Source of the DNA: Candidatus Woesearchaeota archaeon
Lineage (GTDB): Archaea > Nanobdellota > Nanobdellia > Woesearchaeales > JAHWIC01
Assembly (NCBI GenBank): GCA_019322485.1
Contig: JAHWIK010000001.1
Location: 1-54,289 of the forward strand
Direction: 5' to 3'
DNA: 54,289 nt
Shown: one piece after another, positions 6,001-41,150 of the stretch
How positions within the stretch are numbered: the first letter of the stretch is position 1
Layout: each line of letters opens with the position of its first letter
Made by a program: the position numbers and the translations under genes
Notes under the pieces: model-generated
Database searches by the model: none
What the model saw: the letters and a program-made list of their open reading frames with translations, nothing else
Told to the model about the DNA's origin: nothing

Positions 6001-9000
6001 TTGTAGTGTGCATTGTTGGAGAAGTACATTCCACGTCCAGTGGGAGAGTTGTTTGCTGTATTTGAGGTAAAGGTGTTGTACTTTGCCTCACGAATCCAGA
6101 ATCCACGCAGGCTGCTGCCTTTAACTACATTAGAAGTAACTGTGTTGTTGTGGGCCTGGTAGAGGTAGATTCCATACTGGTTGTCATTTACTGTGTTATT
6201 GGTGATGGTATTGTTCTGGGTTGTGCTTCCGTAAATATAGATTCCATACTGGTTGTCATTTACTGTGTTCCCTGAAACTAGATTATACCTTGCGTTGGTG
6301 CTACTAATGCGGATTCCGTAGTTGGTGTTGTCAATAACTGTATTATTGGTGATATTGCTGTATCTGATGGGATTTCCATAAATTCCATAATAGTTGTAAT
6401 TTATTGTGTTATTTGAAATGAGGTTACTGTCTGCGCTTGTCGCGAAGTAGAACCCATACCAGGTGTTGTTGTTTACTGTGTTATGGGTAAAGGTGTTGTT
6501 TGAGCTTGAAACGATGTAGAATCCACGCTCGTTGCCGTTTACTGTGTTATTTGTGATAGTGTTATAGTTACAGTTAGATTGCAGGTAGATTCCATAATCA
6601 GCGTTGTCATTTGCTGCATTTGAAGTGAAGTTATTATTTTTGGCGTTGGTGGTGAGATAGAATCCATTTTGGGTGTTATTCCTTGCTGTGTTGTTTGTAA
6701 GGACATTGTTTGAGCTGGAGGAGAAATAGAATCCCTGCTGAGTGTTGTTGTTTGCATTATTAGAAGTAAAGGTATTATAGTTCGAATTGGAATAGATGCT
6801 AAATCCATCCCGGTTGTTCTTGTTCGCATTATTGAAAGTAACAGTGTTGTTATGGCTGCTGGATAATAGGATTCCAGCATATCCGCTGTTACTTGCATTA
6901 TTGAGGGTAATGGTGTTGTTATTAGACTCGGCGCCGGCGTAGATTCCATAATAGTTTCCATTTGCTGTATTGGAGGCAAGGTAATTGTATTTTGAAACTT
7001 GGCTGAGGAGGATTCCATAGTTGGTATTGTTGTTTGCATTATTAGATGTAAGGATGTTATTTGAACCTAGGTAGACATAGATTCCACGCTTGTTGTCGTT
7101 TGCTGTGTTGGAAGTAAGAGTGTTGTTGTCTGCCTGGAAATAGATATAGATTCCATAATCAGTGTTGTTGTTTGCTGTGTTGGAAGTAAGGGTGGTGTTT
7201 GAGCTGCTCCAGACGTAGATTCCATACCTGCTGTTGTTATTTGCTGTATTATTTGTGAGAATATTATGATTCGAGCCTTGCCGGACAAGGATTCCATCTT
7301 GGGTGTTAAAAGTTACTGTGTTGGAAGTAAGGTTGTTGTTGTTTGAGCTTAAGAGGTAGATTCCGGTTTCAACGTTGTCGTATGCTGTATTATTAATCAA
7401 TAAGCCGTCATTTGCACCGCCACGCCAGTAGATACCCTGGGTGAAGTTATTTACATTGCAATTCTTAACAGTAACATTATCCTTACCATTATTATCAATT
7501 CCATAGCTTGTGCTTGACTGGTCCCCTGTTATGTTGTGCCCAGCGCAATCCAAAGTTATATCATCAGCACCGATTGTTATACAGGTGCCGGAGCCTGTCT
7601 GGCTTAAATTCTTGCCAAGTGTTGTATCTCCTGTTATTGTGGCACCGCAATCACCAACTTCTATTTGAGCATCGTCGCTTGAGGTTTGTGCTTCATAATC
7701 ATCATGGCTGCAGGTTACATTCCATTCCTGAGTGCCTGGGTCTGAGAAGGTTCTTTCATAGGCATAGGTTTGGTAGAGGTTTTTGTTGAGTTTTTCAACC
7801 TGCCAGTCATAGTATGTGTCGCTTCCACTAAGATTTGTTCCAAAACCAACAACTATTGGATTATCATCAGAATCAACAGCAACTGCATAGGCATACTCCT
7901 GTGTTCCAGTATCACCAGGGCTTGTCCAGTTATACTCCCAAACCAGGCTTCCGCTGGAATTCAGCTTCTGGACATACCAGTCATCGCTGTCGTCTCCTGT
8001 AAGATTTAACCCATAACCAGCAACAATTATATCACCAGAAGAATCAACATCTACTCCCTGAGGTACGTCTGTTGATGGCCCTGTCCAGTTATACTCCCAA
8101 ACCTGGCTTCCGCTGGAATTCAGCTTCTTAACATGCAAGTCAGAGGTGCTGTCTCCTGTAAGATTCGTTCCATAACCAGCAACAATTATATTATCATCAG
8201 AATCAACAGCTACTGAATAGGCATAGTCTGCTCCCCATGCAAGAGGTCCAAATACAGGCCCTGTCCAGTTAAACTCCCACAATTTACTTCCGCTGGAATT
8301 CAGCTTCTCAACATGCCAGTCCCTGTAACTGTCTTCTGAAAGATTACCCCCAAAGCCAGCAACAATTATATTATCATCAGAATCAACAGCTACTGAATAG
8401 GCATAGTCTGCTCCCCCGAAAGCGCCTGCTCCTGGCCCTGTCCAGTTATAATCCCACAACAAACTGCCAGAGGAATTCAGCTTCTCAACATGCCAGTCAG
8501 CGCTGTCGTCTCCTGTAAGATTAACCCCAGTACCAGCAACAATTATATTATCATCAGAATCAACAGCTACTGAATAGACATAGTCTGTTCCTGAAGCTCC
8601 TGCAGGCCCTGTCCAGTTATACCCCCATAATTTACTTCCACTGGAATTCAGCTTCTCCACATGCCAGTCAGTGCTGGTAGAGCCCATAAGTTGCCAGCCA
8701 GAACCAGCAGCTATTACATTACCAGAAGAATCAAAAGCAACTCCATAAACATAGTCTACTGATGACGCAGTCCAGTTATACTCCCATAATTTATCTCCAC
8801 TGGAATTCAGCTTCTCCACATGCCAGTCATAACTAGAGCTTCCAATAAGATTATATCCATAACCTCCAATTACCATGTTATCAGAAGAATCAACATCTAT
8901 TGCCCTACATACGCCTACTCCTGCTACTCCTGCAGGCCCTGTCCAGTTATACATCCATATGAATTTGTTCCACTCATCCATGCTATAGGTTCCGTCACTA

Positions 9001-12000
9001 AAGGTTATATTGCAGTCTGCACCGCTTATGAATTCATCTTCCTCTCCAGTATACTGGCTTGTGTAATTTGCGTAGAAAAAGAGATAATCTCCTGTGTACT
9101 TTGTCTGCGAGCCTTCTTTTGGGTCTGTATCATCCCAGAGCGAAAGACCTGAATCCTTGCCAAAGATATCAATCCCGCTTGAGTTTAATGTGGTTCCTTC
9201 TGTATAGCCGTCATTTGGGGTGATAGAACATTTCCATAACTCATTAGTTACTGTTTCTTCGTAGGAGATTGAACTTAAACCGCTTTGGTAGAGTTTTTCT
9301 ATCTGAGCCGCAGATAGGCTTCTGTTGAAGATAAGGACTTCGTCTATTGTTCCGTTGAAATAACCACTAGTATCATAATCTCTGCCAATCAATACATCCA
9401 AATCGGTTATGTTAGCATGCGAAGGCAAGGAACCTAATGCAAATGTAGTGGGGGTGTGGTTTTCTCCATTTACCCAGATTTCCATGTGTTCATTTCCTTT
9501 GAATCTTGCTACAGCGTGATACCAAGTATCTTTTTGTAAAGCTTGATTGCTGCAAATCAACCCACCGCTAAAAGGGGTGCCTGATTTGGATATTGTCAGT
9601 TCAAGCCTATCTGTTCCGCAGAATTGAGTATCATCGAATGTGAATTCCCATCCTCTTTTAGCTGCTCCAGCATAGTATTTCTGTACTATTCCTTGCCTCT
9701 GTCTTGTTGTGCCCCCTACCAAACTTCTTAGATTTATCCAAGCAGATATTGTGAATTCTGTGCTTACATCTAAGCTATCGTCATCACTTATATTGATATA
9801 AGTTGAATTTCCATCAAACTCATAAGCACCAAAGCCGTCATAACCACCAGTTGAGTTCCAGGTTGAACCATTGACAAACCCATCATTACCATAGCCAGAA
9901 TAATCGATTGCAAAGTCATCTGCATCATGCGTTGCATTGCCCCAGCCCTCAAACGGCATGTTAAGTATTGTTAGCGACTTATCATCAACATACCAGTCGA
10001 TTATTGGCTTGACTGAATCTTCATCTGCATCAGCAGAATTATTTAATGAACAGCCAATGTCATTATCTAGGTAAGCATAGTCTCCTTTGCTTGATTCGTA
10101 TAGTTTTTCAATTTCTGTTGCTGATAAGGAACGGTTCCAGATTATGACTTCATCAATTGTGCCGTTCCAGAAATATGTTTCAGGCGTACCATCTAGGTCA
10201 GCATCATATGCTCCTATCCCTAAGACAATACTTGTTGTAGGAATTCCAGAAGTTTTTGCCTCACCATAAGTATTTGTTCCATTTACGTATATTCTACCAT
10301 AGCCACTAGAATCAAATGTGTATGCAACATGATACCACTTATCATTTTGAGTTATTGAGCCAGTTGACTCAATTACATCTTTATGCCAGACAATTCCCTT
10401 TATTTGTCCAGTAGAAAGAACATCGATTCCATAAGCTCCTGCCTTTGTTGCGATTATTTGCTCCCCAGAAGAATAGTTCTTGGGTTTAATCCAAGCAGCG
10501 ATAGTTAATTCATCGCTTATATCTAAGGGATTGCTATCGGCAATCTTAATATAATCATCAACACCATCAAACTCATAAGCCTGTCCAACACGGCCTTCAT
10601 ATGTGTGGTTGGCGCCACTTACAGTTCCATTATTAACCTCAGTCTCATCGTAAGTCCAAGTAGAATTCCCATATTCAAAGCGCCATTCGCCAACTAAGCC
10701 TGAATCAATCCTGTTGTGCGCTCCAATGTAAGGTGTGGAATGTGTTGGGTCTGTGTTTAGTGTGATGTTATCGCTTGCAGTTTGGCTTTCATAGCTGTCA
10801 TGCTCGCAGCTAACATTCCAGTAATGGGTGCCTGACTCTGAGAAGGTTCTTTCATGTTTGTAAAGTTGCTGGAGTTTGAGGATATACGTATCGCTTGACA
10901 TAGTACCAACTATGACCTTTTCTTTGGAATCTAATGCAACTGAATAACCAAAATAACTTTCTTCAGTTGGGCCAGTCCAATTATACTCTCCTAACTTATT
11001 GCCATCAGAATCAAGCTTCTCCACATGCAGGTCATAATAAATCCTACCTGTAATATCTTGGCCCTCTCCTGAAATAATAATATTATCATTAGAATCAATT
11101 GCAACTGAACGGGCTGAATCATGATCTTGAGTTATGTCACTCCAATTATACCCCCATAACTTATTGCCATCAGAATCAAGTTTTTCTACATGCCAATAAT
11201 ATATGTTACCTGTAGTTCTTCCTCTTCCTACAACAACAATATCATCATTAGAATCCACTGCGACACCATAGGCAATGTCAACGGCAGAACCTGGACTGCT
11301 CCAATTATACCCCCATACCTTACCGCCGCTAGAATTCAACTTCTCCACATGCCAATCAGAAAAACTCTTCTGTCCTGCAACAATAATATCATCATTGGAA
11401 TCAACTGCAACTGAACGAGCATCATCAGTTACACTGCCAGAGCTAGTCCAGTTATACCCCCATAGTTTACTTCCACTAGAATTCAACTTCTCCACATGCC
11501 AGTCATAACCTGAAATAGACATAACCCCTGCAACAATAATATCATCATTGGAATCAACTGCAACTGAATAAGCCACATCAGCAGCTGAGCCACTCCAATT
11601 ATACTCCCAGATTTCGTCACCACTACTATTTAATTTTTTCACATGCCAATCATAGTTTGAACTTCCACTTATGAGGTCATTTCCATATCCTGCAACAATA
11701 ATATCATCATTAGAATCCACTGCAACCCCAACAGCACCTTCTGGGTCTGAATTATTCCATACAAACTCCCACTGCTTTGTACCATTTGAGTAAAGTTTCT
11801 CCACATGCCAATCATAGACAACACCAGCCACATATTGATAATCCCCTGCGAGGATAATCTCATCATTAGAGTCCACTGCAACCGACCTGGCAACATATTC
11901 ATAGATGCTTGGGTCACTTAGATTATAACTCCACAACAAGTGATAACCTTCAGGCATATTATAACTTCCATCACTGAAGTCAATAGTGCAACTTCCGTTG

Positions 12001-15000
12001 CTTATAGGCAGTCCAACCTCACCAGTATATGCATTTGAGTAATTGGCATAGAACATTACATCATCCCCTAATCTTTTGCCTTGTGAACCGCCTTGCGGGT
12101 CATTATCATCCCAGACTGAAAGAGACGAGTCCTTGATGGTATTGGTTTCGCTTGAGTTTAATGCAGTTCCTTCTGTATAGCCGTCAGTTGGGGTGATAGA
12201 ACACTTCCATTCTTCACTATATACTGTTTCGTTGTGAGAGATTGAGCTTAAGCCAGACTGGTAGAGTTTTCTGACTTGGTTTGCGTTTAAGCTTCTATTG
12301 AAGATAAGGACTTCGTCGATTGTTCCGTCGAAATACCTGTTATTAAAATCCAACCCGAACCTAACATCTGCATTAGCACCTATAGTTCCTGATATAGTGC
12401 CTGTTGAGCCAGCAGCATCTAATTCTCCATTAATCCAGGTTTTTGGTGCTTCTCCACTCTTCCAGGTTCCAACGACATGGTACCACGCCCCCGTGCCTAG
12501 TGAGTTACCTGATGAATAGCCATATTTATATGTAGAACCGTTGCCAATATAGAACTCGAGCCTATTATTCGCACCATTACCAGAAAAAAAGACCGCATCA
12601 TTAGTACCACTTCTGGACTCTATTATTGGGTCGGCTATATCAAAATCATCAATATTTATCCATGCTGAAACAGTTGTTTCATCCATGCCATAAAATAAGG
12701 CTTCGCTTATTGTGATATAATCATCACCACCATCAAACTCATAAGCACCCCAGCCATCATAGCCGCCAGTTCTGTTAAAGGTTGCATTTATTACCCTTCC
12801 ACTCTTGTTGTGGGGAGAATAATCCCTTGTCCACCCTATGCCTGCTGAGTTGTTCCATTCAAACGGCATATTCAAGATAGTTAATGATTCACCATCTTTG
12901 TACCAGTTGATTATTGGCTTGACTGAATCACCATCTGCGTCAGCTGAATTATTTAGTGAGCAGCCAATATCACTATCTAGGTAAGCATAATCTCCTTTGC
13001 TTGATTCGTATAGTTTTTCAATTTCTGTTGCTGATAAGGAACGGTTCCAGATGGTTACTTCGTCTATTGTGCCGTTGAAATGATTTGGTATCCCTGCGGA
13101 TGGATAATTTCCGATAGTTACATACCCCGTAGTTGTACCTCCAAATGTAGAGGCATCTTCGAAAAACTCACCATTAACATATAAGCTTGCTTTGGAAGTT
13201 GTGGTATCAAAAACAGCTACAAGGTGAGTCCAATCTGTTGTTATGCTATATGAGGAGTCCCAATAGTTTGCTCCAGTCATCAAAGCAGCTTTCCCATTCT
13301 CTAAAAGTAAGGTCCAATCATAACCTCCGTTATCTGGGCATATAATCCATTGTTTGACAGATGGGCTCTCTGTTTTAACCCACGCACTATAAGTTAATGC
13401 AGATGGTGTAGTGAAAGTAAGGCTAGTTTGTACCCTCTCAGTGCTACTATCAAACCAATAACCCTTACCAACCCTGCCTTCATCAGTATGTGTTGCACCA
13501 GTAACAGTTCCATTATTCCTTCCGGTTTCATCATAAGTCCAGGTAGAATTGCCCCATTCGAAGCGCCATTCGCCAACTAAGCCTGAATCAAGCCGGTTAT
13601 GCGCGCCAATGTAAGGTATTGAATGTGTTGGTGCATTAGTTTCATCATTGTATGCATAACCAACATCACTGCCAAACCTAAACTCTAAAGTAACATGCCC
13701 TTCTTTTAGTTTCAGGCTTGATTCATAGCCAGTTTCATTGCAGGAATAATCTTCAACAAACACAGAACTGTTTCCAGAGCTTCTGTTAATCCAGGTATAA
13801 TTAACTAGAGCATCACCGCACCTAAGCTCAATGAAATTGTAGTTGTAATCTGTTCCATTGTAACCAGCAATATCTGTCCAGGTTGCACCATTAATTGGTG
13901 TTATTGTCAGATTAGCTGTTCCAGTTGTGTTAAACATAACAGTCCAGTTGTCGCCAACCTCAGGATAGCTGATGATATTGAGTATATCTATCTCAGTACC
14001 AAATCCTGAGAAGTGCTCAGCAGTAAAGGTTAATCTGCCATTAACAGGGTCATAGCTTATGTCATGGCATATATCACATTCCTTGCCATTAGCAATAATC
14101 TCCTCCCTTGAGCTGTAGAATCCATCTGCGTAATAGATTTTAGGAATTCCTGAGTACCATACATTCTCTAGGGTTATTGTAACAGAATGATTAAAGCTTT
14201 TATCTAAAGCAGATGAATTTGCAGAAACAAATCCAAAGCCAAGCTTTACATTTGTGTTGTAATCTTCTCTGCTTGTATTCACACCATACTCTTCACCAAA
14301 CTCAATCTTTCCATCACTAGTTGCAAGAGTTAGATTTGTGACATTCTCAAAGTCGCTTATTATCCTAAAGTCAGTGCTTCCTTCAGCTCTGTCAAATTCA
14401 GCAGCAAAAGGAACACCTCTTTCATATGTTTCGCTGTAAGCTACTATGCCAGAGTCCAAACTGAATGCATAATCCTCGCCAGGTGTTATATTCAAGGCTT
14501 CTTCCCAACCACCAGAGCATTCCTGCGAATTAGCATCCCAGCCATCGCATCTGTAAAGTTTATCACCTTTTGCAGTTACATTTACAGCTGCATCTGTAAA
14601 GTTTACCTTGGATGAATCTATTGCATATAGCTCAAACAGCTCTCCTGTTTCATTCAGGTCATCTATGTTAATCAGGTCTGTTGTGTTGGAATAAAGCTCT
14701 ACATCCTTGATGACTATTCCCCTAACAGGATGGTTCTTGAGCCTGATGTTTATATCATAGATTCCTTCTTTTATCTTTATGTAATCCTGCTCAGGCTTTA
14801 AATAAGAGGTATCAAGTATGCTGTCAATAAGCTCTACCACAGCATCCTCAAGCTTTTTGAGCTTTGATGTTTTTACATGCGCAGAGAAGATAATCTCTTT
14901 AGGAATGCCAAACTCGTAAACCTCCAAAGCTTCTTTTTTGCCAATAAGAAGCCAGAATGAGGACTTATCCCAATCAAGAATAGTTAGTCTAACTCGTTCA

Positions 15001-16844
15001 TCTGCTGATGATTCTTTTTTGAGGATATCATACTTAACCTTTCCTTTAACATCAATCTTTAATGTTTCATCAGCATTATGGTGGAAAACAACAACTAAAT
15101 CATTGCCATCCTCATACAATTCATCAATGAAAACATCATAGCCTGGGTTATCCCTGAGCTTCTTATAGCTTACATTCGCACTTATGTTTATCTCAACAAG
15201 AGGCATCAGCCTTGTTATTGTGTAATCAAGGTCATCAACATAGATTGTTGAATCACCTATTAATTCAAATCTTAGCCTATAGGAACTTGCATTAAGGCCG
15301 GCTAATACGCAGGTTTCAATGCAGATATCTGAGAAGTCAATGAATTCAATAAATTTAGCATCAAGGCTTAATGTATCTGAATAGTAAATCTCTGAGTATG
15401 GAACCTCTAAGTCATAATCAGCATAGATTACCTGCGCTGTAACAATATTGCTGAGAGTAGCGCCAAACCTTCCATAGCTTAAATCCAAAGGAGCATCCCA
15501 CCCAGCCTGGAATGGAGCAACTCCAACCAAAGCGCAGCAATCAGCACTGCCTTGGCAAACAACAGTTATCTCTGAGTTCTCTTCAGAATAGATTTCCCAT
15601 TTTGTGCAGAGCTTAGAGTAATCCGCATCAAACCCAAATGTTGTATCTTTTACAGTAAAGTCAATTGCTCTTCTTATGTCTTCAATACCATCATCATCAG
15701 CATCAAAGGTTGTGCCAGGATTATATTTTAAATTAATATTTATTTCTTCTAGTGTTTCATTTACTGGTTCTGTAATGGTTTCATTCACAGATGTTTCATT
15801 TATTTGTTCTGTTTCATTTATTGGTGTTGTTTCGTTTAATGTTTGATTTACTGTTTCATTTATTATTGAATTGTTTTCTATTGATTGATTTGTTGTTTCA
15901 TTGATTATTTCTTCAGTTGTTTCATTCAAAACAACATAGCCAGTAATCGCGGGAGGCTCTTCTATCAGCTCAGAACTGTCAAATATTAAGTATTCAGAGC
16001 CTTCATACTCAAGGTAAACTTTAGCACTGCCGCTTACCTTTCCATCCAGCCTAAGAGATCTTAGCTCACCTGGATATGACATATACCACAAGTATGAAGT
16101 AGAGTTAGCTGCTTTGAAATCAATGTGCTCTGTGTAGTTTATTTCCTCACCTGCAGTAATCCTTCCTACAATTGTAGGCCCTGTTATAAAGACATTTGTC
16201 AGCACTAATGCAATCATCAAAACAAACAGCCAGATTGATATGTTTTTTGTTAGCTGATTGCTTTGTATAGGTTTAACCTTTTCAGGCTTCTTTCTAGCAG
16301 CAGGCTTTTCAATAATTTTATGGATATCAAAAACTTCCTTGCGCCATTCCTTAGCTATCTCCCAATCAATATGCGCAACAAGACTGACATAGGTATCTCT
16401 TAGTTTTGGATATACAACTGCTAGTTTTTGTGAGCCAGCAGCTGACCTTGCCTGAGCTAAGAGCTTATTGAACTGAGATACTTTATGGCTGGTAGACCTG
16501 GGTGCATAATAGCCATAAGCTATAATCATTACAGCAAGAACTGCAATCACAAGCAGGAGTGCTGCTGGTGCAAGCAGTTTTGGCAGGCTAAGCCCCAGTG
16601 ATGCAAAGCCAACAATTGAGGTTTCTGTAAACACAAACACAAAAACCAGAACCAGCAGTATTGCTCCAAGGTACAAGCTGCGGTTAGTAATCTCTTCAAG
16701 CTCATAAGACCTAATCAATCTTTCAGTAGTTTCTACATCATGGCCATAAGCAATAAGGGCTTTCTTAATAGAGCTGATACTATAACCTCTTTCTAAACTG
16801 TTCCTTATGTACTTCTTCAGCCCTTTTTCCTGTTGTTTATCCAT
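1..16844 (-). CDS. Giant cell-surface protein, 3'-truncated by the window edge (at least 5614 aa). Order from N- to C-terminus: cytoplasmic N-module, TM helix, NET-sequon linker, Cys-containing region, LamG_3-type modules interleaved with two SBBP beta-propeller arrays, a long parallel beta-helix, then further LamG_3 modules.
   Basis: ATG at 16844-16842 (minus). The six-frame track lists no minus ORF of 60 aa or more in this frame between 1 and 16844, which fits one stop-free frame leaving the window. Three spot translations all fall in the frame p mod 3 = 2. At 13079 down: FNGTIDEVTIWNRSLSATEI. At 8411 down: ADYAYSVAVDSDDNIIVAGFGGNLSEDS. At 6221 down: TQNNTITNNTVNDNQYGIYLYQAHNNTVTSN. N-terminus translated: MDKQQEKGLKKYIRNSLERGYSISSIKKALIAYGHD...LYLGAILLVLVFVFVF (TM). 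The DEV-I-NRSLS-EI-LY motif is confirmed nine times, at about 13050, 12300, 10130, 9330, 3465, 2710, 1870, 1065 and 460. Confidence 0.85.
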   Translation of the reverse strand, partial: MDKQQEKGLKKYIRNSLERGYSISSIKKALIAYGHDVETTERLIRSYELEEITNRSLYLGAILLVLVFVFVFTETSIVGFASLGLSLPKLLAPAALLLVIAVLAVMIIAYGYYAPRSTSHKVSQFNKLLAQARSAAGSQKLAVVYPKLRDTYVSLVAHIDWEIAKEWRKEVFDIHKIIEKPAARKKPEKVKPIQSNQLTKNISIWLFVLMIALVLTNVFITGPTIVGRITAGEEINYTEHIDFKAANSTSYLWYMSYPGELRSLRLDGKVSGSAKVYLEYEGSEYLIFDSSELIEEPPAITGYVVLNETTEEIINETTNQSIENNSIINETVNQTLNETTPINETEQINETSVNETITEPVNETLEEININLKYNPGTTFDADDDGIEDIRRAIDFTVKDTTFGFDADYSKLCTKWEIYSEENSEITVVCQGSADCCALVGVAPFQAGWDAPLDLSYGRFGATLSNIVTAQVIYADYDLEVPYSEIYYSDTLSLDAKFIEFIDFSDICIETCVLAGLNASSYRLRFELIGDSTIYVDDLDYTITRLMPLVEINISANVSYKKLRDNPGYDVFIDELYEDGNDLVVVFHHNADETLKIDVKGKVKYDILKKESSADERVRLTILDWDKSSFWLLIGKKEALEVYEFGIPKEIIFSAHVKTSKLKKLEDAVVELIDSILDTSYLKPEQDYIKIKEGIYDINIRLKNHPVRGIVIKDVELYSNTTDLINIDDLNETGELFELYAIDSSKVNFTDAAVNVTAKGDKLYRCDGWDANSQECSGGWEEALNITPGEDYAFSLDSGIVAYSETYERGVPFAAEFDRAEGSTDFRIISDFENVTNLTLATSDGKIEFGEEYGVNTSREDYNTNVKLGFGFVSANSSALDKSFNHSVTITLENVWYSGIPKIYYADGFYSSREEIIANGKECDICHDISYDPVNGRLTFTAEHFSGFGTEIDILNIISYPEVGDNWTVMFNTTGTANLTITPINGATWTDIAGYNGTDYNYNFIELRCGDALVNYTWINRSSGNSSVFVEDYSCNETGYESSLKLKEGHVTLEFRFGSDVGYAYNDETNAPTHSIPYIGAHNRLDSGLVGEWRFEWGNSTWTYDETGRNNGTVTGATHTDEGRVGKGYWFDSSTERVQTSLTFTTPSALTYSAWVKTESPSVKQWIICPDNGGYDWTLLLENGKAALMTGANYWDSSYSITTDWTHLVAVFDTTTSKASLYVNGEFFEDASTFGGTTTGYVTIGNYPSAGIPNHFNGTIDEVTIWNRSLSATEIEKLYESSKGDYAYLDSDIGCSLNNSADADGDSVKPIINWYKDGESLTILNMPFEWNNSAGIGWTRDYSPHNKSGRVINATFNRTGGYDGWGAYEFDGGDDYITISEALFYGMDETTVSAWINIDDFDIADPIIESRSGTNDAVFFSGNGANNRLEFYIGNGSTYKYGYSSGNSLGTGAWYHVVGTWKSGEAPKTWINGELDAAGSTGTISGTIGANADVRFGLDFNNRYFDGTIDEVLIFNRSLNANQVRKLYQSGLSSISHNETVYSEEWKCSITPTDGYTEGTALNSSETNTIKDSSLSVWDDNDPQGGSQGKRLGDDVMFYANYSNAYTGEVGLPISNGSCTIDFSDGSYNMPEGYHLLWSYNLSDPSIYEYVARSVAVDSNDEIILAGDYQYVAGVVYDWHVEKLYSNGTKQWEFVWNNSDPEGAVGVAVDSNDDIIVAGYGNDLISGSSNYDWHVKKLNSSGDEIWEYNWSGSAADVAYSVAVDSNDDIIVAGVMSISGYDWHVEKLNSSGSKLWGYNWTSSGSVTDDARSVAVDSNDDIIVAGQKSFSDWHVEKLNSSGGKVWGYNWSSPGSAVDIAYGVAVDSNDDIVVVGRGRTTGNIYYWHVEKLDSDGNKLWGYNWSDITQDHDSARSVAIDSNDNIIISGEGQDITGRIYYDLHVEKLDSDGNKLGEYNWTGPTEESYFGYSVALDSKEKVIVGTMSSDTYILKLQQLYKHERTFSESGTHYWNVSCEHDSYESQTASDNITLNTDPTHSTPYIGAHNRIDSGLVGEWRFEYGNSTWTYDETEVNNGTVSGANHTYEGRVGQAYEFDGVDDYIKIADSNPLDISDELTIAAWIKPKNYSSGEQIIATKAGAYGIDVLSTGQIKGIVWHKDVIESTGSITQNDKWYHVAYTFDSSGYGRIYVNGTNTYGEAKTSGIPTTSIVLGIGAYDADLDGTPETYFWNGTIDEVIIWNRSLSATEIEKLYESSKGDYAYLDNDIGCSLNNSADADEDSVKPIIDWYVDDKSLTILNMPFEGWGNATHDADDFAIDYSGYGNDGFVNGSTWNSTGGYDGFGAYEFDGNSTYINISDDDSLDVSTEFTISAWINLRSLVGGTTRQRQGIVQKYYAGAAKRGWEFTFDDTQFCGTDRLELTISKSGTPFSGGLICSNQALQKDTWYHAVARFKGNEHMEIWVNGENHTPTTFALGSLPSHANITDLDVLIGRDYDTSGYFNGTIDEVLIFNRSLSAAQIEKLYQSGLSSISYEETVTNELWKCSITPNDGYTEGTTLNSSGIDIFGKDSGLSLWDDTDPKEGSQTKYTGDYLFFYANYTSQYTGEEDEFISGADCNITFSDGTYSMDEWNKFIWMYNWTGPAGVAGVGVCRAIDVDSSDNMVIGGYGYNLIGSSSYDWHVEKLNSSGDKLWEYNWTASSVDYVYGVAFDSSGNVIAAGSGWQLMGSTSTDWHVEKLNSSGSKLWGYNWTGPAGASGTDYVYSVAVDSDDNIIVAGTGVNLTGDDSADWHVEKLNSSGSLLWDYNWTGPGAGAFGGADYAYSVAVDSDDNIIVAGFGGNLSEDSYRDWHVEKLNSSGSKLWEFNWTGPVFGPLAWGADYAYSVAVDSDDNIIVAGYGTNLTGDSTSDLHVKKLNSSGSQVWEYNWTGPSTDVPQGVDVDSSGDIIVAGYGLNLTGDDSDDWYVQKLNSSGSLVWEYNWTSPGDTGTQEYAYAVAVDSDDNPIVVGFGTNLSGSDTYYDWQVEKLNKNLYQTYAYERTFSDPGTQEWNVTCSHDDYEAQTSSDDAQIEVGDCGATITGDTTLGKNLSQTGSGTCITIGADDITLDCAGHNITGDQSSTSYGIDNNGKDNVTVKNCNVNNFTQGIYWRGGANDGLLINNTAYDNVETGIYLLSSNNNNLTSNTVTFNTQDGILVRQGSNHNILTNNTANNNSRYGIYVWSSSNTTLTSNTANNNTDYGIYIYFQADNNTLTSNTANDNKRGIYVYLGSNNILTSNNANNNTNYGILLSQVSKYNYLASNTANGNYYGIYAGAESNNNTITLNNASNSGYAGILLSSSHNNTVTFNNANKNNRDGFSIYSNSNYNTFTSNNANNNTQQGFYFSSSSNNVLTNNTARNNTQNGFYLTTNAKNNNFTSNAANDNADYGIYLQSNCNYNTITNNTVNGNERGFYIVSSSNNTFTHNTVNNNTWYGFYFATSADSNLISNNTINYNYYGIYGNPIRYSNITNNTVIDNTNYGIRISSTNARYNLVSGNTVNDNQYGIYIYGSTTQNNTITNNTVNDNQYGIYLYQAHNNTVTSNVVKGSSLRGFWIREAKYNTFTSNTANNSPTGRGMYFSNNAHYNTLTSNNANNNQYGIYLDTASNNTITSNTANNNSQTGIYLSSNTPGNHIINNSASYGGTGIYISSSPSNVVANNTARNNTNYGIGTGTSAHYTNYTGNTLIYNREGIYTYSWGNIFHLNNVSFNTEEGFYLGGYDNIITNNTFIYNTDYGVQLYGGGRTIIANNTIQFSSIGLGLSQGTQNNSVSYNEITKNLDEGITLSNSNRNNITNNNISENAANGRGINGYGDLNLIKENTINSQYDGIYLYSTSDNNTIIFNDISYNGLNGITITSGSYANISSNTLISDRNGINSASNCNGFTIHGNNITGNSLNHGISLFGSKDNTVTSNYVEGKSHGIDFNAVFNSTFRYNTISNNSYGIYIQYGGYNNIISNNVSNSTERGAHVFQSIKSNFTSNSFNNNTNYGMYFSSSSVNNTINDNIISYNGNTGIYVWAGCEYNIFTNNTFENNDDYGIRFVGSEDSTVYNNKFDTNGINAWENANNTWNATYNCSIGPNIVGGSCIGGNWWSDYLGSDTDGDFVGDTLLPYNASGNLLIGDWLPLTSEVLSIWDDTDAEAGSNVVFTGDDVKFYANFTDAANDSISGANCIANFADSTGNSMSYSSGTYEYTRSFSSGGTYSWNVTCSKSGYINKTKTDTINISSTPTHYNPYIGGHNKYESDRLYEFRFEWGNSTWVYADYIEPDGDVENYTVYGATHTDGGRVGKAYEFDGVDDYMSTNQDPDYPGRTSITIAAWVNHNALSGTADVIFDEGVRAKLMINSSYVSGWIEDSMAYQLSAEAPASNVVSGEWTHIAFTWESGQQGAIFINGVNLTTGGNAITNTLGVSIGALPRIGSSGSHYFNGTIDELIVWNRSLSASEISDLYDSSRGDYAYDEQDIGCGGNDLYDGDGDPIKAVYNWYKDDTSITVLNMPFEAWRGNSTHDNDNWTEDYSGYSNDGTVTGAVFNGSAGHDGKGAYEFDGIDDYIETSENITITGSQDRTISLWAKTSSGNNQRPLGWGAGPSGNRSDYDVIFESGTTIFIGIDGGNRKFSFSYNDSKWHHYVFSQDGPNTTNINCYVDGVSLAESSINNQVVNTTSTPSRIGRGYDFTGYFNGSIDEVLIFNRTLNTNEIRNLYRFGLSSLSHNETNKHERWSCALTPNDGIIGGTTLFSNDLVLNQEPTHSIPYIGAHNDITDGLVGEWRFEWGNSSWTYDETGVNNGTVSSATKTYAGRVGQAYEFDGGDDWINVGTSPLYGAGAIEMSVSAWIYADPGNFDGDTQLFIDTSTGDPQPYDGFYIGVDDRNIGPAPINGIQFSIGTTDGGGYELLYSDDNVIPSKGWYHVVGTYGGDSGKIYVNGVESSNVYVDETGDFDPANANMYIGATNGGTYDFNGTIDEVVIWNRSLSATEIADLYNSSRGAYEVYTSNDLGCSINNSDDNDDDSVKTIINWYVDDKSITVLNMPFESLNSKHTDINNSDMVGAWYMEGNADDRTVYGNDGTVYGGPPPYLTDGKVGQGYEFENGSIHIGEDIFELDTLTVSLWVKMNEVDKTQSFIANTETGTTGWHISVISTNNIVFSFRDSSTFQSSQTGTGFAEKDKWYHLVGVAGNGEIKLYVNGEVASTTDTYDGTGLYSSTEDLIIGAKTQDAGYPQVPPELQANATIDEVIIWNRSLSATEIQALYEEGLDSEEEAKDYSGYENWGSVQGATYDETGGHDGFGAYEFDGVDDRIETADFSWTTSESFTMATWINPASTSNVGSILAKRAQEQSYSLNTDDGNDLYFYYTDYGVQLISLSDSNRLTAGNWYFVTVTYDGSVARMYTDGNLVATDSDVSGTFSPGGENLYVGYGGYDPEDSEVNAYFNGTIDEVLIFNRSLNSNEVKKLYQNGLSSLSSNETITHESWKCSVTPNDGYTDGETYNSSETTLTNSPPTTPSVRSPANDSFYTINSVNVSCSGSTDVDGDALAYYLWGGTSPSSMTYLGNDSYTWTTTDGTTYYWVCAAYDEEDFSSNTSIWQFSENFDPTQ
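4500..7500 (-). repeat. Region of ~66-nt periodic repeats encoding a right-handed parallel beta-helix (PbH1 / NosD-like coils, roughly 40-45 turns) within the giant protein.
   Basis: Translation gives a reiterated NNTITNNTVNDNxYGIYLxxSxNNTxTSN pattern. The out-of-frame 166-aa T/Q/M-rich ORF at 6539..7039 is a shadow of this periodicity. Confidence 0.7.
7800..9000 (-). repeat. SBBP-type beta-propeller repeat array 2 (about eight units, several nearly identical at the DNA level) inside the giant gene.
   Basis: Units beginning ccagttatactcccacaa at about 7939, 8085, 8259, 8438, 8606, 8773 and 8945. Long identical stretches, for example atcagaatcaacagctactgaataggcatagtctgctcc near 8197 and 8375. 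Translation: DWHVEKLNSSGSKLWEFNWTGP...ADYAYSVAVDSDDNIIVAG. Confidence 0.75.
10880..11950 (-). repeat. SBBP-type beta-propeller repeat array 1 (about seven units of ~150-170 nt) inside the giant gene.
   Basis: Recurrent DNA units of the form ccaattatacccccata...gaattcaacttctccacatgcca. The protein units read like WHVEKLNSSGxxLWxYNW...YxVAVDSNDDIIVAG. Confidence 0.7.
15735..15930 (-). repeat. Low-complexity stretch of GTTTCATT-like units on the plus strand, encoding Asn-Glu-Thr and Asn-x-Ser/Thr sequon repeats of the giant protein (NETTEEIINETTNQSIENNSIINETVNQTLNETTPINETEQINETSVNETITEPVNETLEE).
   Basis: Direct reading of the repeated tttcatt units and their translation in the giant ORF frame. 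Confidence 0.8.
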
Positions 16845-17292
16845 GCTTGCCTCTTTTAAACTTGGCCCTATGGTAGACTGTCCAGATGTTACGTTCATCT
16901 CGGTTGAGTAGAATGCCTATCTCATGGAAGCTGAGCTTTTTATGGTCCTTAAGCCATTCAACAATGGCTTCAAAACCACTCAAGCTTCTGTCCTTTAGGA
17001 CAGAGATAGGCACACTCAACCGGGGTTTTGGAGCAGAAATTCTCTTAGTAATCTCGCGCTTCTTCCTTACTCTTGAATAAATGGTCCAGATATTGCGCTC
17101 ATCGCGATTAAGAATTAAACCAATCTGGCGGTAGTTGAGTCCTTTTTCTTCTTTCAAATACTCTACAACAGCTTCAAGAATTGCAAGATTAGTATCAAAG
17201 AAAACAGTATTTGGCAGAAGGAGAGCAGTATGATTAGAAGCTTTTTTAATAACATCACTCTTTTTAAGTTCTCCAAAACCCCTTTTAATCAA
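16837..17292 (-). CDS. Small DNA-binding protein with two tandem HTH-like repeats (sigma-70 region 4-like). Its 3' end overlaps the giant gene start by 8 nt.
   Basis: 151 aa. Internal duplication: LEAVVEYLKEEKGLNYRQIGLILNRDERNIWTIYSRVRKK and FEAIVEWLKDHKKLSFHEIGILLNRDERNIWTVYHRAKFK. Stop at 16839-16837, while the giant gene ATG sits at 16844-16842. Confidence 0.55.
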   Translation of the reverse strand: MIKRGFGELKKSDVIKKASNHTALLLPNTVFFDTNLAILEAVVEYLKEEKGLNYRQIGLILNRDERNIWTIYSRVRKKREITKRISAPKPRLSVPISVLKDRSLSGFEAIVEWLKDHKKLSFHEIGILLNRDERNIWTVYHRAKFKRGKHG

Positions 17293-24918: not shown

Positions 24919-26256
24919 CTAAGGTAACTCACTAGCTAGAACAATGACCTGATTTGCGCCTTTCTTAGCAGTAAAAACCAGCTTTCCATCAACTTCAGTT
25001 ATAGCAGAGCCGATGCCTGTGTATTCTTTCCCTATCTCCTGGCCGTCATAAACTATATATCTACTGAGTAGGCCTTCACTAAAAACAATGACCATCTTAT
25101 TATTGACCTCATGTAAAGAAGAGATTCTTCTCTGACCTTCACCAAGCTGCCCTCCACCGAACTCTTTCCCAATCTCCTGTCCATCATAAACTATCAAACG
25201 TCCTTTTTCTTTATTCATTACCATAAAAGCAACCTTATCATCAATTTCAATTATATAGTTGTCAAATAAATGAAGACCTTGATTATCATACTCCTTGCCT
25301 AACTCTCGGCCTTCATAAACTATGAACCATCTTGTATCAAAGTCTCCCTCTAATTTGTTGGTTGCTACATAAGCAATCTTGCCATTTACATCTTGTATAT
25401 TGCTTGCATGCGCATATTCCTTGCCCAATTCCCTACCACCATAGACAATAAACGTCTTGTTGTCTTTCTTTGCTGTATAAGCTAATTTGCCGTTTATTCC
25501 AGTTAAGTCAGATACGCTATCATATTCCTTCCCAATCTCCTGTCCATCATAGACAATAAAGTATTCATCACAAATGAACTTGCCTGCACAACCGACTCCT
25601 GCCTTATATGCTGGTTTTTCATTGACATTTACTAGATCAGACACCCTGTCATATCCTGCTTCAATTACCTGTTCGTCAAGAACAACTACTGTATTGCTGC
25701 TTAACTCTTTCTGGGCAATGAATGCAGCCTTTCCGCCAATAGATACTAATGAGAAAGGAAGTATCTTATAATATGACTCTCCCGTATGCCCGTCACTGTA
25801 TACTATGAAATTGTTTTCGTTATCTGTTCTAGCAGCATAAATAAGCTCTCCATTTGCTTCAATTGGATAGAATGCATCCATATATTCTGATCCAACTTCT
25901 TCATACTCCAGGGTCACTTCTTTCTTTTCTTCTTGGAGGGGTATTATTGGTTCTTCAGGCTCTGGCTCTACAGCAGGTTCTTCGCTTAGAACTAATTGAT
26001 TGTTGTTAGTCGGAACTACTCCAATTGTCTTTCCAGAGAATAAAAAATAAGATGCCCCTATGATCATAATCAGAACAACGAGAATTATCACTACAGGTTT
26101 TGCACTTTTTGCTTGTCTTTTGTTGACAAGATTGATAGCTTCATTGACTTCTTTACTATCATATCCTTGCTTTATCAAGTAATCATATAATTGTTTAACA
26201 GTATATCCCTGTGCTTCTTCAGATTTAATATAATCAATCAGTTGTTGGTTGACCAT
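24919..26256 (-). CDS. Single-pass membrane protein. Its N-terminal cytoplasmic module is homologous to that of the giant protein, and its extracellular part carries about seven ~40-aa repeats (FIVYDGQEIGKEYDxVxDLxxVNGKxAY).
   Basis: N-terminus MVNQQLIDYIKSEEAQGYTVKQLYDYLIKQGYDSKEV, then a TM helix, a PEPEEP linker, then the repeats. Confidence 0.6.
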   Translation of the reverse strand: MVNQQLIDYIKSEEAQGYTVKQLYDYLIKQGYDSKEVNEAINLVNKRQAKSAKPVVIILVVLIMIIGASYFLFSGKTIGVVPTNNNQLVLSEEPAVEPEPEEPIIPLQEEKKEVTLEYEEVGSEYMDAFYPIEANGELIYAARTDNENNFIVYSDGHTGESYYKILPFSLVSIGGKAAFIAQKELSSNTVVVLDEQVIEAGYDRVSDLVNVNEKPAYKAGVGCAGKFICDEYFIVYDGQEIGKEYDSVSDLTGINGKLAYTAKKDNKTFIVYGGRELGKEYAHASNIQDVNGKIAYVATNKLEGDFDTRWFIVYEGRELGKEYDNQGLHLFDNYIIEIDDKVAFMVMNKEKGRLIVYDGQEIGKEFGGGQLGEGQRRISSLHEVNNKMVIVFSEGLLSRYIVYDGQEIGKEYTGIGSAITEVDGKLVFTAKKGANQVIVLASELP

Positions 26257-39864: not shown

Positions 39865-40434
39865 ATGCTTGGTAAGATAAAAGAGCTTGTGAATATAAAA
39901 GAGGATATTAAAGCAGTTTCTAAGGATTTTGACCAGTTAAAGAGGGAAGTATCATCATTTAAAGAAGAAATCAATAAACTAAAAGAATCATTGAATGACA
40001 CTAATTCCACCCAAAAACAATTTCTAAAAAATCTTGAAAATGATATGGGTATAATAAATGAGTCAAAGGAATCATTCAAGAAAGAGGTCTATGATTTTAA
40101 ATTATTGAAATCTCAGCTGCAGAACAAGCTGCTTCAAAAGTTCGAGGAAGAGCTTGGAAAAGAGCTTAAGGTAAATATCGATAAATTAAAAGAGGATTAT
40201 GGTGGCTATGCTGAGCTTAAGGATAAGGTCGATGCCATAAAGCCAAAGATAGACGAGCTGAATAAAACAATATCTAAATTATCAGATGTAAGCAAAAGCC
40301 TGAAAAAAGAGGATTTTGAGCTGACAAAGTTTGCAAACCAGATTCTTGCAGTTGACAAGGAAAAACTAGAGCTTATGAGGAAGATAGATACTCTTGAAAG
40401 GCTAATATCCAAGATGAGAAGATCTGCCAGATGA
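39865..40434 (+). CDS. Coiled-coil protein (hypothetical).
   Basis: 189 aa with heptad-rich K/E/L sequence. Confidence 0.5.
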   Translation: MLGKIKELVNIKEDIKAVSKDFDQLKREVSSFKEEINKLKESLNDTNSTQKQFLKNLENDMGIINESKESFKKEVYDFKLLKSQLQNKLLQKFEEELGKELKVNIDKLKEDYGGYAELKDKVDAIKPKIDELNKTISKLSDVSKSLKKEDFELTKFANQILAVDKEKLELMRKIDTLERLISKMRRSAR

Positions 40435-41150
40435 ATAGGAAGATAATTGTTAATATCATTGCTGTTCTGTTAATACTTAGCATTCCTTTGATTCTTTATC
40501 TCCTTAACTTCAGGTTGATATTGTCTGATACGGATTTTTATGAGGCTGAATTTGAAAAACATGGTGTTTATGAAAGGTTTGGAAAAGAGGATGTAGATAA
40601 GACTAATTCAGGATTACTGGCCTATTTTGAAGATGGAAGAAAGAACAGCCTGCATGATGATGACTTTTTCGATTTTGGAGAAAAGAGGCATTTACTTGAT
40701 GTTAAGAATGCTGTTCAGGCTGCATCATCTCTGCTTGTATGGGTTGTTTGTATTGTTATATTCTTATTGATACTTTTTTATTTTACGGATTTTAAGAGAT
40801 TAACAGAATATATCCCTTTGATATTAATCTTCAGCGGAGCAGTAACCTTAATCTTTGGGTTAATCTTGCTAGTATTTGTCAGGCTTAACTTTGATTTGCC
40901 GTTTGCATTTTTGCATAAGATGCTCTTTGAAGAAGGCACATGGCTGTTTTCAGGCGACAGCAACCTGATTGGCATGTATCCGATTGGCTTTTTTTATGAT
41001 TTCTCCAGGAGCATATTTTTCAATGCAGCGCTCCACGGCTTTGTTCTGGTATTAATTGGATTTCTTATCAGGATATTGTTATTGGGGAAAATAATCAAAA
41101 AAGAAAGATATTTAAACATCAGAAAAAAGAAGAAAATCAATAAAAAATAA
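40431..41150 (+). CDS. Integral membrane protein, possibly of the TIGR01906 / DUF1461 family.
   Basis: 239 aa. An N-terminal TM helix, an extracytoplasmic segment, then three or four TM helices. Overlaps the upstream stop (ATGA). Confidence 0.4.
   Translation: MNRKIIVNIIAVLLILSIPLILYLLNFRLILSDTDFYEAEFEKHGVYERFGKEDVDKTNSGLLAYFEDGRKNSLHDDDFFDFGEKRHLLDVKNAVQAASSLLVWVVCIVIFLLILFYFTDFKRLTEYIPLILIFSGAVTLIFGLILLVFVRLNFDLPFAFLHKMLFEEGTWLFSGDSNLIGMYPIGFFYDFSRSIFFNAALHGFVLVLIGFLIRILLLGKIIKKERYLNIRKKKKINKK

What the first reader, a model, noticed from the sequence alone, without database searches (positions are those of the whole stretch)
16700..16844. Shared ~40-aa N-terminal cytoplasmic module plus TM on two different surface proteins
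The giant protein N-terminus is QQEKGLKKYIRNSLERGYSISSIKKALIAYGHDVETTERLI. The 445-aa repeat protein at 24919..26256 begins QQLIDYIKSEEAQGYTVKQLYDYLIKQGYDSKEVNEAINLV. The two align with identical spacing (YI[RK]-x5-GY[ST]-x11-G[YH]D), and each is followed by a single TM helix. This looks like a lineage-specific signal-anchor or sorting domain, or possibly a small HTH-like fold, shared by type II surface proteins.
Basis: seen in the sequence. Interest (0 to 1): 0.55.

Follow-up and report, generated by a model that had tools for sequence, protein, structure and literature searches.

The report
Cytoplasmic three-helix tail domain family
Two unrelated surface proteins of this Woesearchaeote start with the same small three-helix domain, which belongs to a large family missing from Pfam and NCBIfam and sits on the predicted cytoplasmic end of thousands of membrane proteins in ultrasmall CPR bacteria and DPANN archaea; its function is unknown.

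Summary
Both genes lie on the minus strand: a giant protein (start 16844, at least 5,614 aa) and a 445-aa repeat protein (24919..26256). Both begin with a homologous ~45-aa module.

- **Pairwise similarity is modest.** BLASTP E=8e-4; 17 of 20,000 shuffles reach the score.
- **Profile evidence is strong.** A profile of 176 modules from other proteins scores the giant N-terminus at E=1.2e-6. The next window ORF scores E=1.2.
- **Not curated.** No Pfam or NCBIfam model reaches its cutoff.
- **Not lineage-specific.** 6,904 clusters at 50% identity match. Labelled genomes are mostly Patescibacteria/CPR, plus Woese- and Nanoarchaeota.
- **Not N-terminal only.** Archaeal giant proteins carry tandem arrays of 2-8 copies after a C-terminal TM helix. 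The module always lies on the side of the membrane opposite the ectodomain.
- **One correction.** The giant has three hydrophobic segments, not one.

Most likely it is a cytoplasmic docking or anchoring domain for envelope proteins. That function is inferred, not shown. I rate it a new member of a known kind, of moderate interest.

The parts
16683..16844 (-). N-terminal three-helix module of the giant protein (aa 1-54). The near-invariant family positions are kept: G20, L30, G34, and H35 in place of the usual W/Y.
16605..16676 (-). Giant protein, first hydrophobic (TM) segment, about aa 57-80.
   Evidence: Kyte-Doolittle 19-residue window, peak 2.45 at aa 62-80.
16515..16577 (-). Giant protein, second hydrophobic (TM) segment, about aa 90-110.
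   Evidence: Kyte-Doolittle peak 3.06 at aa 90-108.
16242..16514 (-). Giant protein, basic loop of about 90 aa (aa 111-201). It is predicted to be cytoplasmic.
   Evidence: The sequence is K/R-rich. It lies between TM2 and TM3. The cytoplasmic location is inferred from the positive-inside rule.
16185..16241 (-). Giant protein, third hydrophobic (TM) segment, aa 202-220.
   Evidence: Kyte-Doolittle peak 2.59.
3..16184 (-). Giant protein ectodomain (aa 221 to at least 5,614; the gene runs off the window). It contains 9 Laminin_G_3 stretches and about 10 NosD/Beta_helix stretches.
   Evidence: Pfam scan: Laminin_G_3 1.2e-94 and 1e-103, NosD 5.8e-130, Beta_helix 2.7e-107.
26116..26256 (-). N-terminal three-helix module of the 445-aa protein (aa 1-47).
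26038..26094 (-). Single TM segment of the 445-aa protein (aa 55-73). It is preceded by K/R-rich NKRQAKSAKP.
   Evidence: Kyte-Doolittle peak 3.03. Four K/R residues on the N-side flank versus one on the C-side, read from the sequence.
24919..26028 (-). Ectodomain of the 445-aa protein, made of repeats of the type FIVYDGxEIGKEYD...GKxAY. No Pfam family matches.
   Evidence: Translation. No Pfam hit. 134 homologues at E<=0.001, 120 of them listed; most of those listed have other N-termini such as signal peptides, lipobox-like sequences or PG_binding_1.

Best explanation
The shared element is one member of a large protein domain family that Pfam and NCBIfam do not cover. It is a ~45-aa, autonomously folding three-helix bundle. 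The consensus is M-[VI]-N-Q-Q-L-[LIV]-D-Y-I-K-x2-L-x2-G-[YV]-S-x3-I-x3-L-x3-G-[WY]-x3-[DE]-[IV]-x-E-A-[FIL].

A flexible linker joins it to the cytoplasmic end of membrane proteins. It occurs in three settings:
- before the first TM helix of N-in single-pass or polytopic proteins, as in the two window proteins;
- as N-terminal tandems of 2-7 copies;
- as arrays of 2-8 copies in the cytoplasmic tail, after the C-terminal TM anchor of giant signal-peptide-bearing surface proteins.

Shown here: homology of the two window copies, the predicted fold, the size of the family, its presence in both CPR bacteria and DPANN archaea, and its constant position next to a TM segment on the side opposite the ectodomain.

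Inferred: the module is a cytoplasmic protein-protein docking or anchoring handle. It would let many different envelope proteins engage one common cytoplasmic partner, or each other, with tandem copies giving multivalency. It would act after insertion, not as a cleaved or targeting signal.
For: - **Homology and significance:**
- **Family size:** 6,904 clusters with E<=1e-3 and 521 with E<=1e-10, from a 6-sequence profile that did not include the giant.
- **Association with the membrane:** all 82 complete module ORFs from GTDB genomes have a hydrophobic segment 5-167 aa after the module; 51 have one TM and 31 have several. Among the top hits with N-terminal copies, 84 of 111 have one; most of the rest are short fragments, and a few also carry module copies near their C-terminal end.
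- **Side of the membrane:** K+R counts are higher on the module side of the first TM in 53 proteins, lower in 18, and tied in 11.
- **C-terminal arrays:** 33 of 35 have a TM segment 13-168 aa upstream of the array, and 20 of 35 also have an N-terminal signal-like segment. An example is P0134: ectodomain, TM, HRK, then 4 modules.
- **Diverse fusion partners:** LamG/beta-helix, novel beta repeats, CARDB, PD40, PsbP_2, RDD, DUF4190, UPF0259. This is typical of a mobile adaptor domain.
- **Conservation pattern:** conserved positions are mainly core hydrophobics and two turn glycines.
- **Distribution:** 50 of 80 labelled GTDB loci are CPR, including a closed Parcubacteria genome, and 8 are explicitly Woese- or Nanoarchaeota. 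Three array-bearing proteins lie on archaeal contigs next to Topo VI, Cdc6, aIF5B, Nop5 and fibrillarin.
Against: - No partner is known and no experiment exists. The docking function rests only on fold class, topology and architecture.
- Topology comes from my own hydropathy and positive-inside counts, not a dedicated predictor. 18 of 82 proteins show the opposite charge bias.
- Conservation is mostly of core residues, so no obvious binding surface is defined.
- The nearest structural neighbours (RecX, wHTH/RRE domains, homeodomains) include many nucleic-acid or peptide binders, so the ligand class is open.
- A few family members lack any TM segment (for example P0124 and P0222).
Confidence: 0.55

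Rival explanations
1. Topogenic or insertion aid. A fast-folding domain ahead of the first TM helix locks the N-terminus in the cytoplasm. It would enforce N-in/C-out orientation, or serve as a recognition handle for the targeting or insertion machinery. This is essentially the first reader's 'signal-anchor or sorting domain'.
For: - 80 of the 176 full-length modules start exactly at Met1.
- A TM segment always follows.
- Both window proteins lack a cleavable signal peptide and carry very large ectodomains.
Against: - The same module occurs after the last TM helix, in C-terminal tails of signal-peptide-bearing proteins, in 2-8 copies. There it cannot act in N-terminal targeting or orientation.
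- N-terminal tandems of up to 7 copies are unnecessary for a topological lock.
- Linkers of up to 167 aa separate the module from the TM segment.
Confidence: 0.15
2. Membrane-tethered nucleic-acid-binding HTH. The module would bind DNA or RNA. It would either tether the nucleoid to envelope proteins or act as a membrane-bound regulator of the ToxR or RodZ type.
For: - The best structural matches are RecX repeats and other HTH-type domains.
- There are weak Pfam hits to RecX_HTH1/2/3, HTH_33 and RepB_primase_C.
- Some array copies are strongly basic, up to +10 net charge.
Against: - N-terminal single copies are on average acidic, with a mean net charge of -2.2. The window copies are -1 and +1.
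- No HTH family cutoff is reached.
- Fusion to giant adhesin-like ectodomains and arrays of 2-8 copies is atypical for transcription factors.
Confidence: 0.12
3. Extracellular wall- or surface-binding repeat, like the CW_7 repeats of the Cpl-7 lysozyme or the Ltp HTH repeats.
For: - phmmer of the 445-aa module hits the three CW_7 repeats of 5i8l, with a summed E of 1.1e-5.
- Foldseek lists 4cvd.
- Like CW_7, the module occurs in tandem arrays.
Against: - No individual CW_7 repeat match is significant (i-Evalue 18-100).
- Pfam CW_7 is not among the 25 most-matched of the 69 families hit by the 105 members.
- The module is always on the opposite side of the TM segment from recognisably extracellular domains. 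It has no preceding signal peptide when N-terminal, and the K/R bias points to the cytoplasm.
Confidence: 0.03
4. Chance or compositional resemblance between two K/E/Q-rich helical N-termini, with no homology.
For: Pairwise identity is only 26% over 34 aa. A first 6-sequence profile gave the giant only 10.5 bits, E=0.016.
Against: - The larger independent profile gives E=1.2e-6, with a 19-bit gap to the next ORF.
- In the shuffle test only 17 of 20,000 shuffles (about 8.5e-4) reach the observed score.
Confidence: 0.02

Closest known systems
RecX three-helix repeats (Pfam RecX_HTH1 PF21982, RecX_HTH2 PF02631, RecX_HTH3 PF21981; PDB 3c1d, 3e3v)
   Different: The Pfam cutoff is not reached (24.2 bits against 26). 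The PDB profile E-value is only 0.016. From general knowledge, RecX is a soluble protein of three repeats that regulates RecA. Here the unit is tethered to membrane proteins, in 1-8 copies, with its own conserved motif (G17, L27, G31-W/Y32).
Pex14 N-terminal domain (PDB 4bxu, 2w84, 5aon)
   Different: Foldseek E=2, which is not significant. Sequence identity is 12-15%. Pex14_N is not among the 25 most-matched Pfam families. Pex14 is a eukaryotic peroxisomal protein.
UBA and UBA-like domains (PF00627, PF18039, PF22567)
   Same: A three-helix bundle of about 40-45 aa, often in tandem, that acts as a protein-protein interaction module. 3-4 of the 105 members give weak hits. The CBL UBA domain gives E 0.07-0.17 in the PDB profile search.
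   Different: All hits are below cutoffs. The UBA signature loop is not evident. No ubiquitin-like system is implied in CPR bacteria.
Small promiscuous cytoplasmic N-terminal domains of bacterial membrane proteins (the RodZ HTH; zinc-ribbon or GYF_2 domains in front of RDD or DUF4190 membrane domains). This comparison is from general knowledge, not tested here.
   Same: The architecture is the same: a small folded cytoplasmic domain, a linker, a TM segment, then a variable membrane or extracellular part. Some family members carry RDD, DUF4190 or DUF4870 membrane domains.
   Different: The sequence family is unrelated. The distribution appears centred on CPR and DPANN. C-terminal tail arrays on giant surface proteins are not a feature of those domains.

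Membership tests
RecX three-helix repeat (Pfam PF21982 / PF02631 / PF21981) | Sequence score at or above the Pfam gathering cutoff | tested here: not met
   The 445-aa module scores 24.2 bits against a cutoff of 26. Only 26 of 105 family members reach even E<=0.1 for RecX_HTH1, 11 for RecX_HTH3 and 6 for RecX_HTH2. In the scan of the giant's first 181 aa, no RecX family appears at E<=10.
RecX three-helix repeat (Pfam PF21982 / PF02631 / PF21981) | Three-helix fold superposable on a RecX repeat | tested here: met
RecX three-helix repeat (Pfam PF21982 / PF02631 / PF21981) | Soluble protein of about 150 aa with three repeats that acts on RecA | tested here: not met
   Here the module is joined to TM segments and large ectodomains, in 1-8 copies. 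RecA binding is not testable with these tools.
Pex14 N-terminal domain (PF04695) | Sequence match to the family, or a significant structural match | tested here: not met
UBA domain (PF00627 and relatives) | Sequence score at or above the Pfam cutoff | tested here: not met
   3-4 of 105 members hit with E>=0.014, all below cutoffs.
CW_7 cell-wall-binding repeat (Cpl-7; PF08230) | Significant per-repeat sequence match and an extracellular location | tested here: not met
   Per-repeat i-Evalues are 18-100. It is not among the 25 most-matched Pfam families. The module lies on the side of the TM segment opposite the ectodomain.
   35 of the 146 top hits with a scored module carry it only more than 100 aa from the N-terminus. 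33 of these have it after a TM segment, mostly at the C-terminal end. Linkers reach 167 aa.
DNA-binding helix-turn-helix | Nucleic-acid binding through a recognition helix, usually with a basic surface | tested here: inconclusive
   The mean net charge of N-terminal single copies is -2.2, and array copies range from -9 to +10. Binding itself is not testable with these tools.
The new family itself (CPR/DPANN membrane-tail three-helix module) | Match to a family HMM built without the query; conserved G17, L27 and G31-aromatic32; adjacency to a TM segment | tested here: met
   445-aa protein: 65.5 bits. Giant: 23.9 bits, E=1.2e-6. The giant keeps G20, L30, G34 and H35. TM segments follow both modules.

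The most novel reading that the evidence does not exclude
The module is the common cytoplasmic 'plug' of a docking system specific to ultrasmall episymbiotic prokaryotes. Many surface adhesins and envelope proteins of CPR bacteria and DPANN archaea would be coupled through this three-helix tail domain, multivalently in giant proteins, to one shared intracellular partner or lattice. That lattice would position, cluster or mechanically anchor them at the host-contact site. The module would have been exchanged between the two domains of life.
Probability: 0.2. Interest if true: 0.75.

Novelty: new member of a known kind. Interest (0 to 1): 0.45.

Why it matters
CPR bacteria and DPANN archaea depend on contact with host cells, and their surface proteomes are largely unannotated. 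This module is compact and easy to recognise. It marks the cytoplasmic end of thousands of their membrane proteins, including giant adhesin-like proteins.

It has three practical uses:
- It helps assign membrane topology.
- It gives a handle for finding a shared cytoplasmic partner, by pull-downs or AF-multimer screens in the genetically tractable Saccharibacteria.
- It is a candidate for a new curated domain family.

Its presence in both bacterial and archaeal ultrasmall lineages also bears on gene exchange or convergent needs between these groups. Without a demonstrated function, it remains a well-supported domain of unknown function rather than a new mechanism.

Tried and rejected
- **Short-query word-index searches.** The two ~76-80-aa N-termini gave 1 hit and 0 hits. 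This reflects the method's limit, not absence. The exhaustive HMMER search found thousands.
- **First small profile.** Six sequences gave the giant only E=0.016. It was superseded by the 176-sequence profile.
- **Pfam and NCBIfam.** Scans of the window proteins, five homologues and 105 modules found no family above its cutoff.
- **PDB sequence searches.** Only de novo designed helical proteins matched significantly, with RecX marginal at E=0.016.
- **Foldseek against PDB.** Nothing scored below E=2. The afdb50 library was unavailable.
- **The search for related loci.** A narrower alignment, A3, worked but samples only N-terminal copies starting M[VIA]NQ[QE].., so the taxonomic census is biased.
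- **Cluster look-up.** Ten hits gave no organism names.
- **Cultured-organism and viral collections.** The consensus found nothing by tblastn in 72,556 plasmids or 50,697 phage genomes, and nothing in IMG/VR.
- **Literature.** Two full-text searches and one paper (PMC8204110) gave no description of this module.
- **Polytopic CPR members.** A Pfam scan gave only sub-threshold UPF0259, GPDPase_memb and T2SSG hints.
- **Rejected readings.** Extracellular CW_7-like repeat (wrong topology), pure chance similarity (statistics), and an N-terminal sorting signal as the sole role (C-terminal arrays).

Full report
**1. What is in the window**

The window is a contig of a Candidatus Woesearchaeota archaeon. 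The 445-aa protein is identical to NCBI KY360_00070, which lies on a 54,289-bp contig. Neighbouring ORFs read as archaeal (for example a TFE-like protein, ribosomal proteins and a translation-factor GTPase); this is my reading of the translations, not a family scan.

Both proteins named in the finding are encoded on the minus strand.

- **The giant ORF** starts at ATG 16844 and runs off the window start, so it is at least 5,614 aa. The start is supported by an AGAGG motif 7 nt upstream. It also overlaps the stop of the preceding ORF by 8 nt (ATGGATAA).
- **The second ORF** is 24919..26256, 445 aa.
- Both quoted peptides are present, and the motif spacing YI[RK]-x5-GY[ST]-x11-G[YH]D is identical in the two.

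**2. Is the similarity more than chance?**

The pairwise evidence is modest. BLASTP gives 26% identity over 34 aa, E=8e-4. In a permutation test only 17 of 20,000 shuffles reach the observed local score, z=4.85.

The decisive test uses independent sequences.

- I searched with the full 445-aa protein and found five further proteins with the same N-terminus (P0088, P0101, P0105, P0110, P0120).
- A 6-sequence profile without the giant (A1) was run against 1.84 billion representative proteins. It returned 6,904 proteins at E<=1e-3 and 521 at E<=1e-10.
- From the best 150 I extracted 176 full-length modules and built a new HMM.
- Against all 807 six-frame ORFs of the window, this HMM scores the 445-aa protein at 65.5 bits and the giant N-terminus at 23.9 bits (E=1.2e-6). 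The next ORF scores 4.7 bits (E=1.2).

The two N-termini are therefore homologous. The giant's copy is the more divergent, mainly in helix 3. There is no third copy in the window.

**3. Fold**

- AlphaFold2 on the 445-aa module with a 105-sequence alignment gives pLDDT 88.9 and three helices: 4-16, 20-30 and 34-47.
- A single-sequence prediction of giant residues 1-56 is independent of the family alignment. It gives pLDDT 86.2 and helices 3-19, 23-32 and 37-54. This is the same register, with turns at the conserved glycines.
- Lower hits include peptide-binding RRE/PqqD domains, Ltp and Pex14-N.
- Foldseek finds nothing significant. Its best hit is Pex14-N, with E=2 and query TM-score 0.67.

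**4. Is it a known family?**

No Pfam-A or NCBIfam model reaches its cutoff on the window proteins, on five homologues or on 105 diverse modules.

- The commonest weak hit is RecX_HTH1. It reaches E<=0.1 in 26 of 105 members, and its best score is 24.2 bits against a cutoff of 26.
- A PDB profile search gives only designed helical proteins, then RecX at E=0.016.
- The CW_7 repeats of the Cpl-7 lysozyme appear only as a sum of individually insignificant matches.
- Two literature searches and one paper gave no description of the module.

I therefore treat it as an uncurated family with a RecX-repeat-like fold. It is not a RecX family member.

**5. Architecture and topology across the family**

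N-terminal copies:
- Among the top 150 hits, the module occurs as a single N-terminal copy or as N-terminal tandems of 2-7 copies.
- In 82 complete ORFs from GTDB genomes, a hydrophobic segment follows the module in every case, 5-167 aa downstream. 51 have one TM segment and 31 have several.
- K+R counts are higher on the module side of the first TM in 53 proteins, lower in 18 and tied in 11.

C-terminal arrays:
- The module also occurs as arrays of 2-8 copies placed more than 100 aa from the N-terminus, in proteins of up to 5,173 aa.
- In 33 of 35 such proteins a TM segment lies 13-168 aa upstream of the array.
- 20 of 35 also begin with a signal-peptide-like hydrophobic segment.

The module is thus always on the side of the membrane opposite the large, recognisably extracellular part. 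That is the cytoplasmic side by standard topology rules. This is an inference from my own hydropathy scan, not from a dedicated predictor.

In the window:
- The 445-aa protein is a simple N-in single-pass protein. Its TM segment is aa 55-73, with a +4 K/R flank on the N side.
- The giant has three hydrophobic segments (aa 62-80, 90-108, 202-220) and a basic ~90-aa loop between the second and third. This still places the module inside and the ectodomain outside. The ectodomain has 9 Laminin_G_3 and about 10 NosD/beta-helix stretches.

**6. Partners and distribution**

The parts fused to the module are highly diverse and mostly unannotated. Examples are CARDB, PD40, PsbP_2, PepSY, RDD, DUF4190, DUF4870 and UPF0259.

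Conversely, homologues of the 445-aa ectodomain mostly carry other N-termini, such as signal peptides, lipobox-like sequences or PG_binding_1. This is domain shuffling.

A GTDB scan was restricted by its pattern to copies starting M[VIA]NQ[QE][LI][ILV]D[YF]. It confirmed 116 loci. The 80 listed break down as follows:

| Record label | Loci |
|---|---|
| Explicitly Patescibacteria/CPR (Saccharibacteria, Parcubacteria, Nomura-, Adler-, Ames-, Uhr-bacteria, CPR2 and others, including a closed genome) | 50 |
| Archaeal: 8 Woese-/Nanoarchaeota or unclassified archaeon, plus one MAG contig labelled Methanosarcinales | 9 |
| Unclassified 'bacterium' | 16 |
| Unexpected bacterial labels (Gammaproteobacteria, Spirochaetia), not verified | 5 |

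- One CPR2 locus is flanked by miaA- and miaB-like genes.
- Three array-bearing proteins lie on archaeal contigs, next to Topo VI, Cdc6, aIF5B, Nop5 and fibrillarin.
- Several MAGs have more than one module gene.
- The consensus has no tblastn match in plasmid or phage collections, and none in IMG/VR.

**7. How it most likely works**

Shown: a small, independently folding three-helix domain is tethered by a flexible linker to the membrane-proximal end, on the side opposite the ectodomain, of many unrelated envelope proteins. It is sometimes present in multiple copies.

Conserved positions are mostly core hydrophobics (L6, Y9, I10, L14, I23, L27, I/V37, A40, F41), two turn glycines (G17, G31) and an aromatic residue after G31. 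The mean net charge of single N-terminal copies is -2.2.

Inferred: the module is a docking or anchoring handle. It would connect envelope proteins to a common cytoplasmic partner or to each other, with tandem copies adding valency.

Rivals:
- **Topogenic or targeting role (0.15).** It is weakened by the C-terminal arrays.
- **Membrane-tethered nucleic-acid binding (0.12).** It is suggested by the HTH-like neighbours and some very basic copies, and weakened by the acidic average charge and the architectures.
- **Extracellular CW_7-like binding (0.03).** It is contradicted by the topology.
- **Chance (0.02).** It is contradicted by the statistics.

**8. Verdict**

It is a cytoplasmic, HTH-like small domain next to a TM segment. 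It is not lineage-specific and not primarily a signal-anchor.

The feature is a new, large, apparently uncurated member of the class of small helical cytoplasmic domains. Its distribution appears centred on CPR bacteria and DPANN archaea. I rate the interest as moderate. The feature is solid and useful for annotation and for designing partner screens, but its function is not established.

Noticed in passing
window 16837..17292 (-): A 151-aa ORF lies immediately upstream of the giant gene, and its stop overlaps the giant's start by 8 nt (ATGGATAA). It contains two internal repeats (…LNYRQIGLILNRDERNIWTIYSRVRKK… and …LSFHEIGILLNRDERNIWTVYHRAKFK…) with a sub-threshold Sigma70_r4_2 match (23.1 bits against a cutoff of 25.7). 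It may be a small HTH protein co-transcribed with the giant surface protein.
   Followed up: partly
window 40431..41150 (+): A 239-aa polytopic membrane protein matches Pfam Lit (lipoprotein intramolecular transacylase, PF07314) at E=4e-22. Finding this family in a Woesearchaeote is unexpected.
   Followed up: no
window 24919..26028 (-): The ectodomain of the 445-aa protein consists of about 9 repeats of the type FIVYDGxEIGKEYD…GKxAY, with no Pfam match. 134 homologues (E<=0.001) occur in CPR bacteria, Woesearchaeota and Altiarchaeota. They carry alternative N-termini such as signal peptides, lipobox-like Cys or PG_binding_1. This repeat family itself looks uncurated.
   Followed up: partly
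window 3..16184 (-): The giant protein (at least 5,614 aa, truncated by the window edge) combines 9 Laminin_G_3 and about 10 NosD/beta-helix stretches. It also has repeated '…DWHVEKLNSSG.KLW.YNW…AVDSNDDIIVAG' units and an N-x-T/S-rich linker at aa 300-375.
   Followed up: partly
window 41922..42497 (-) and 42774..43268 (-): Two small proteins have short basic N-termini followed by a hydrophobic stretch (MYKKGIELSINFIVIFILAI…, MRLSKSKRASLSLSINAIVILILAF…). These resemble archaeal type IV pilin-like (class III) signal peptides. This was read from the sequence only.
   Followed up: no
L005, L007, L012, L014, L016, L027, L028, L034 (module ORFs starting near position 3001 or as listed): A recurrent CPR protein type of about 420-460 aa (L028 is longer, 670 aa, with a PsbP_2 domain) has the N-terminal module followed by 5-6 or more hydrophobic segments at similar positions in most of them. 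There are sub-threshold UPF0259 and GPDPase_memb matches, and a weak T2SSG (pilin-like) hint at the C-terminus. It may be a conserved polytopic family that always carries the module.
   Followed up: partly
L041 (3001-3957 and 4063-4584), L047 (3001-3858 and 5526-6008), L052: Two module-bearing genes lie within a few kb of each other in several CPR MAG contigs. Three MAGs contribute two separate loci each (DBS1-1.bin14, Yes71-31, AM-2014-D8_bin-0749). The module is therefore multi-copy per genome, as in the window.
   Followed up: partly
L038, L043, L049, L060 (labelled Gammaproteobacteria), L072 (Spirochaetia), L002 (Methanosarcinales): Six module loci come from MAG contigs whose record titles name lineages outside CPR and DPANN. 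I did not check whether this reflects mis-binning or mislabelling, or a genuinely wider distribution.
   Followed up: no
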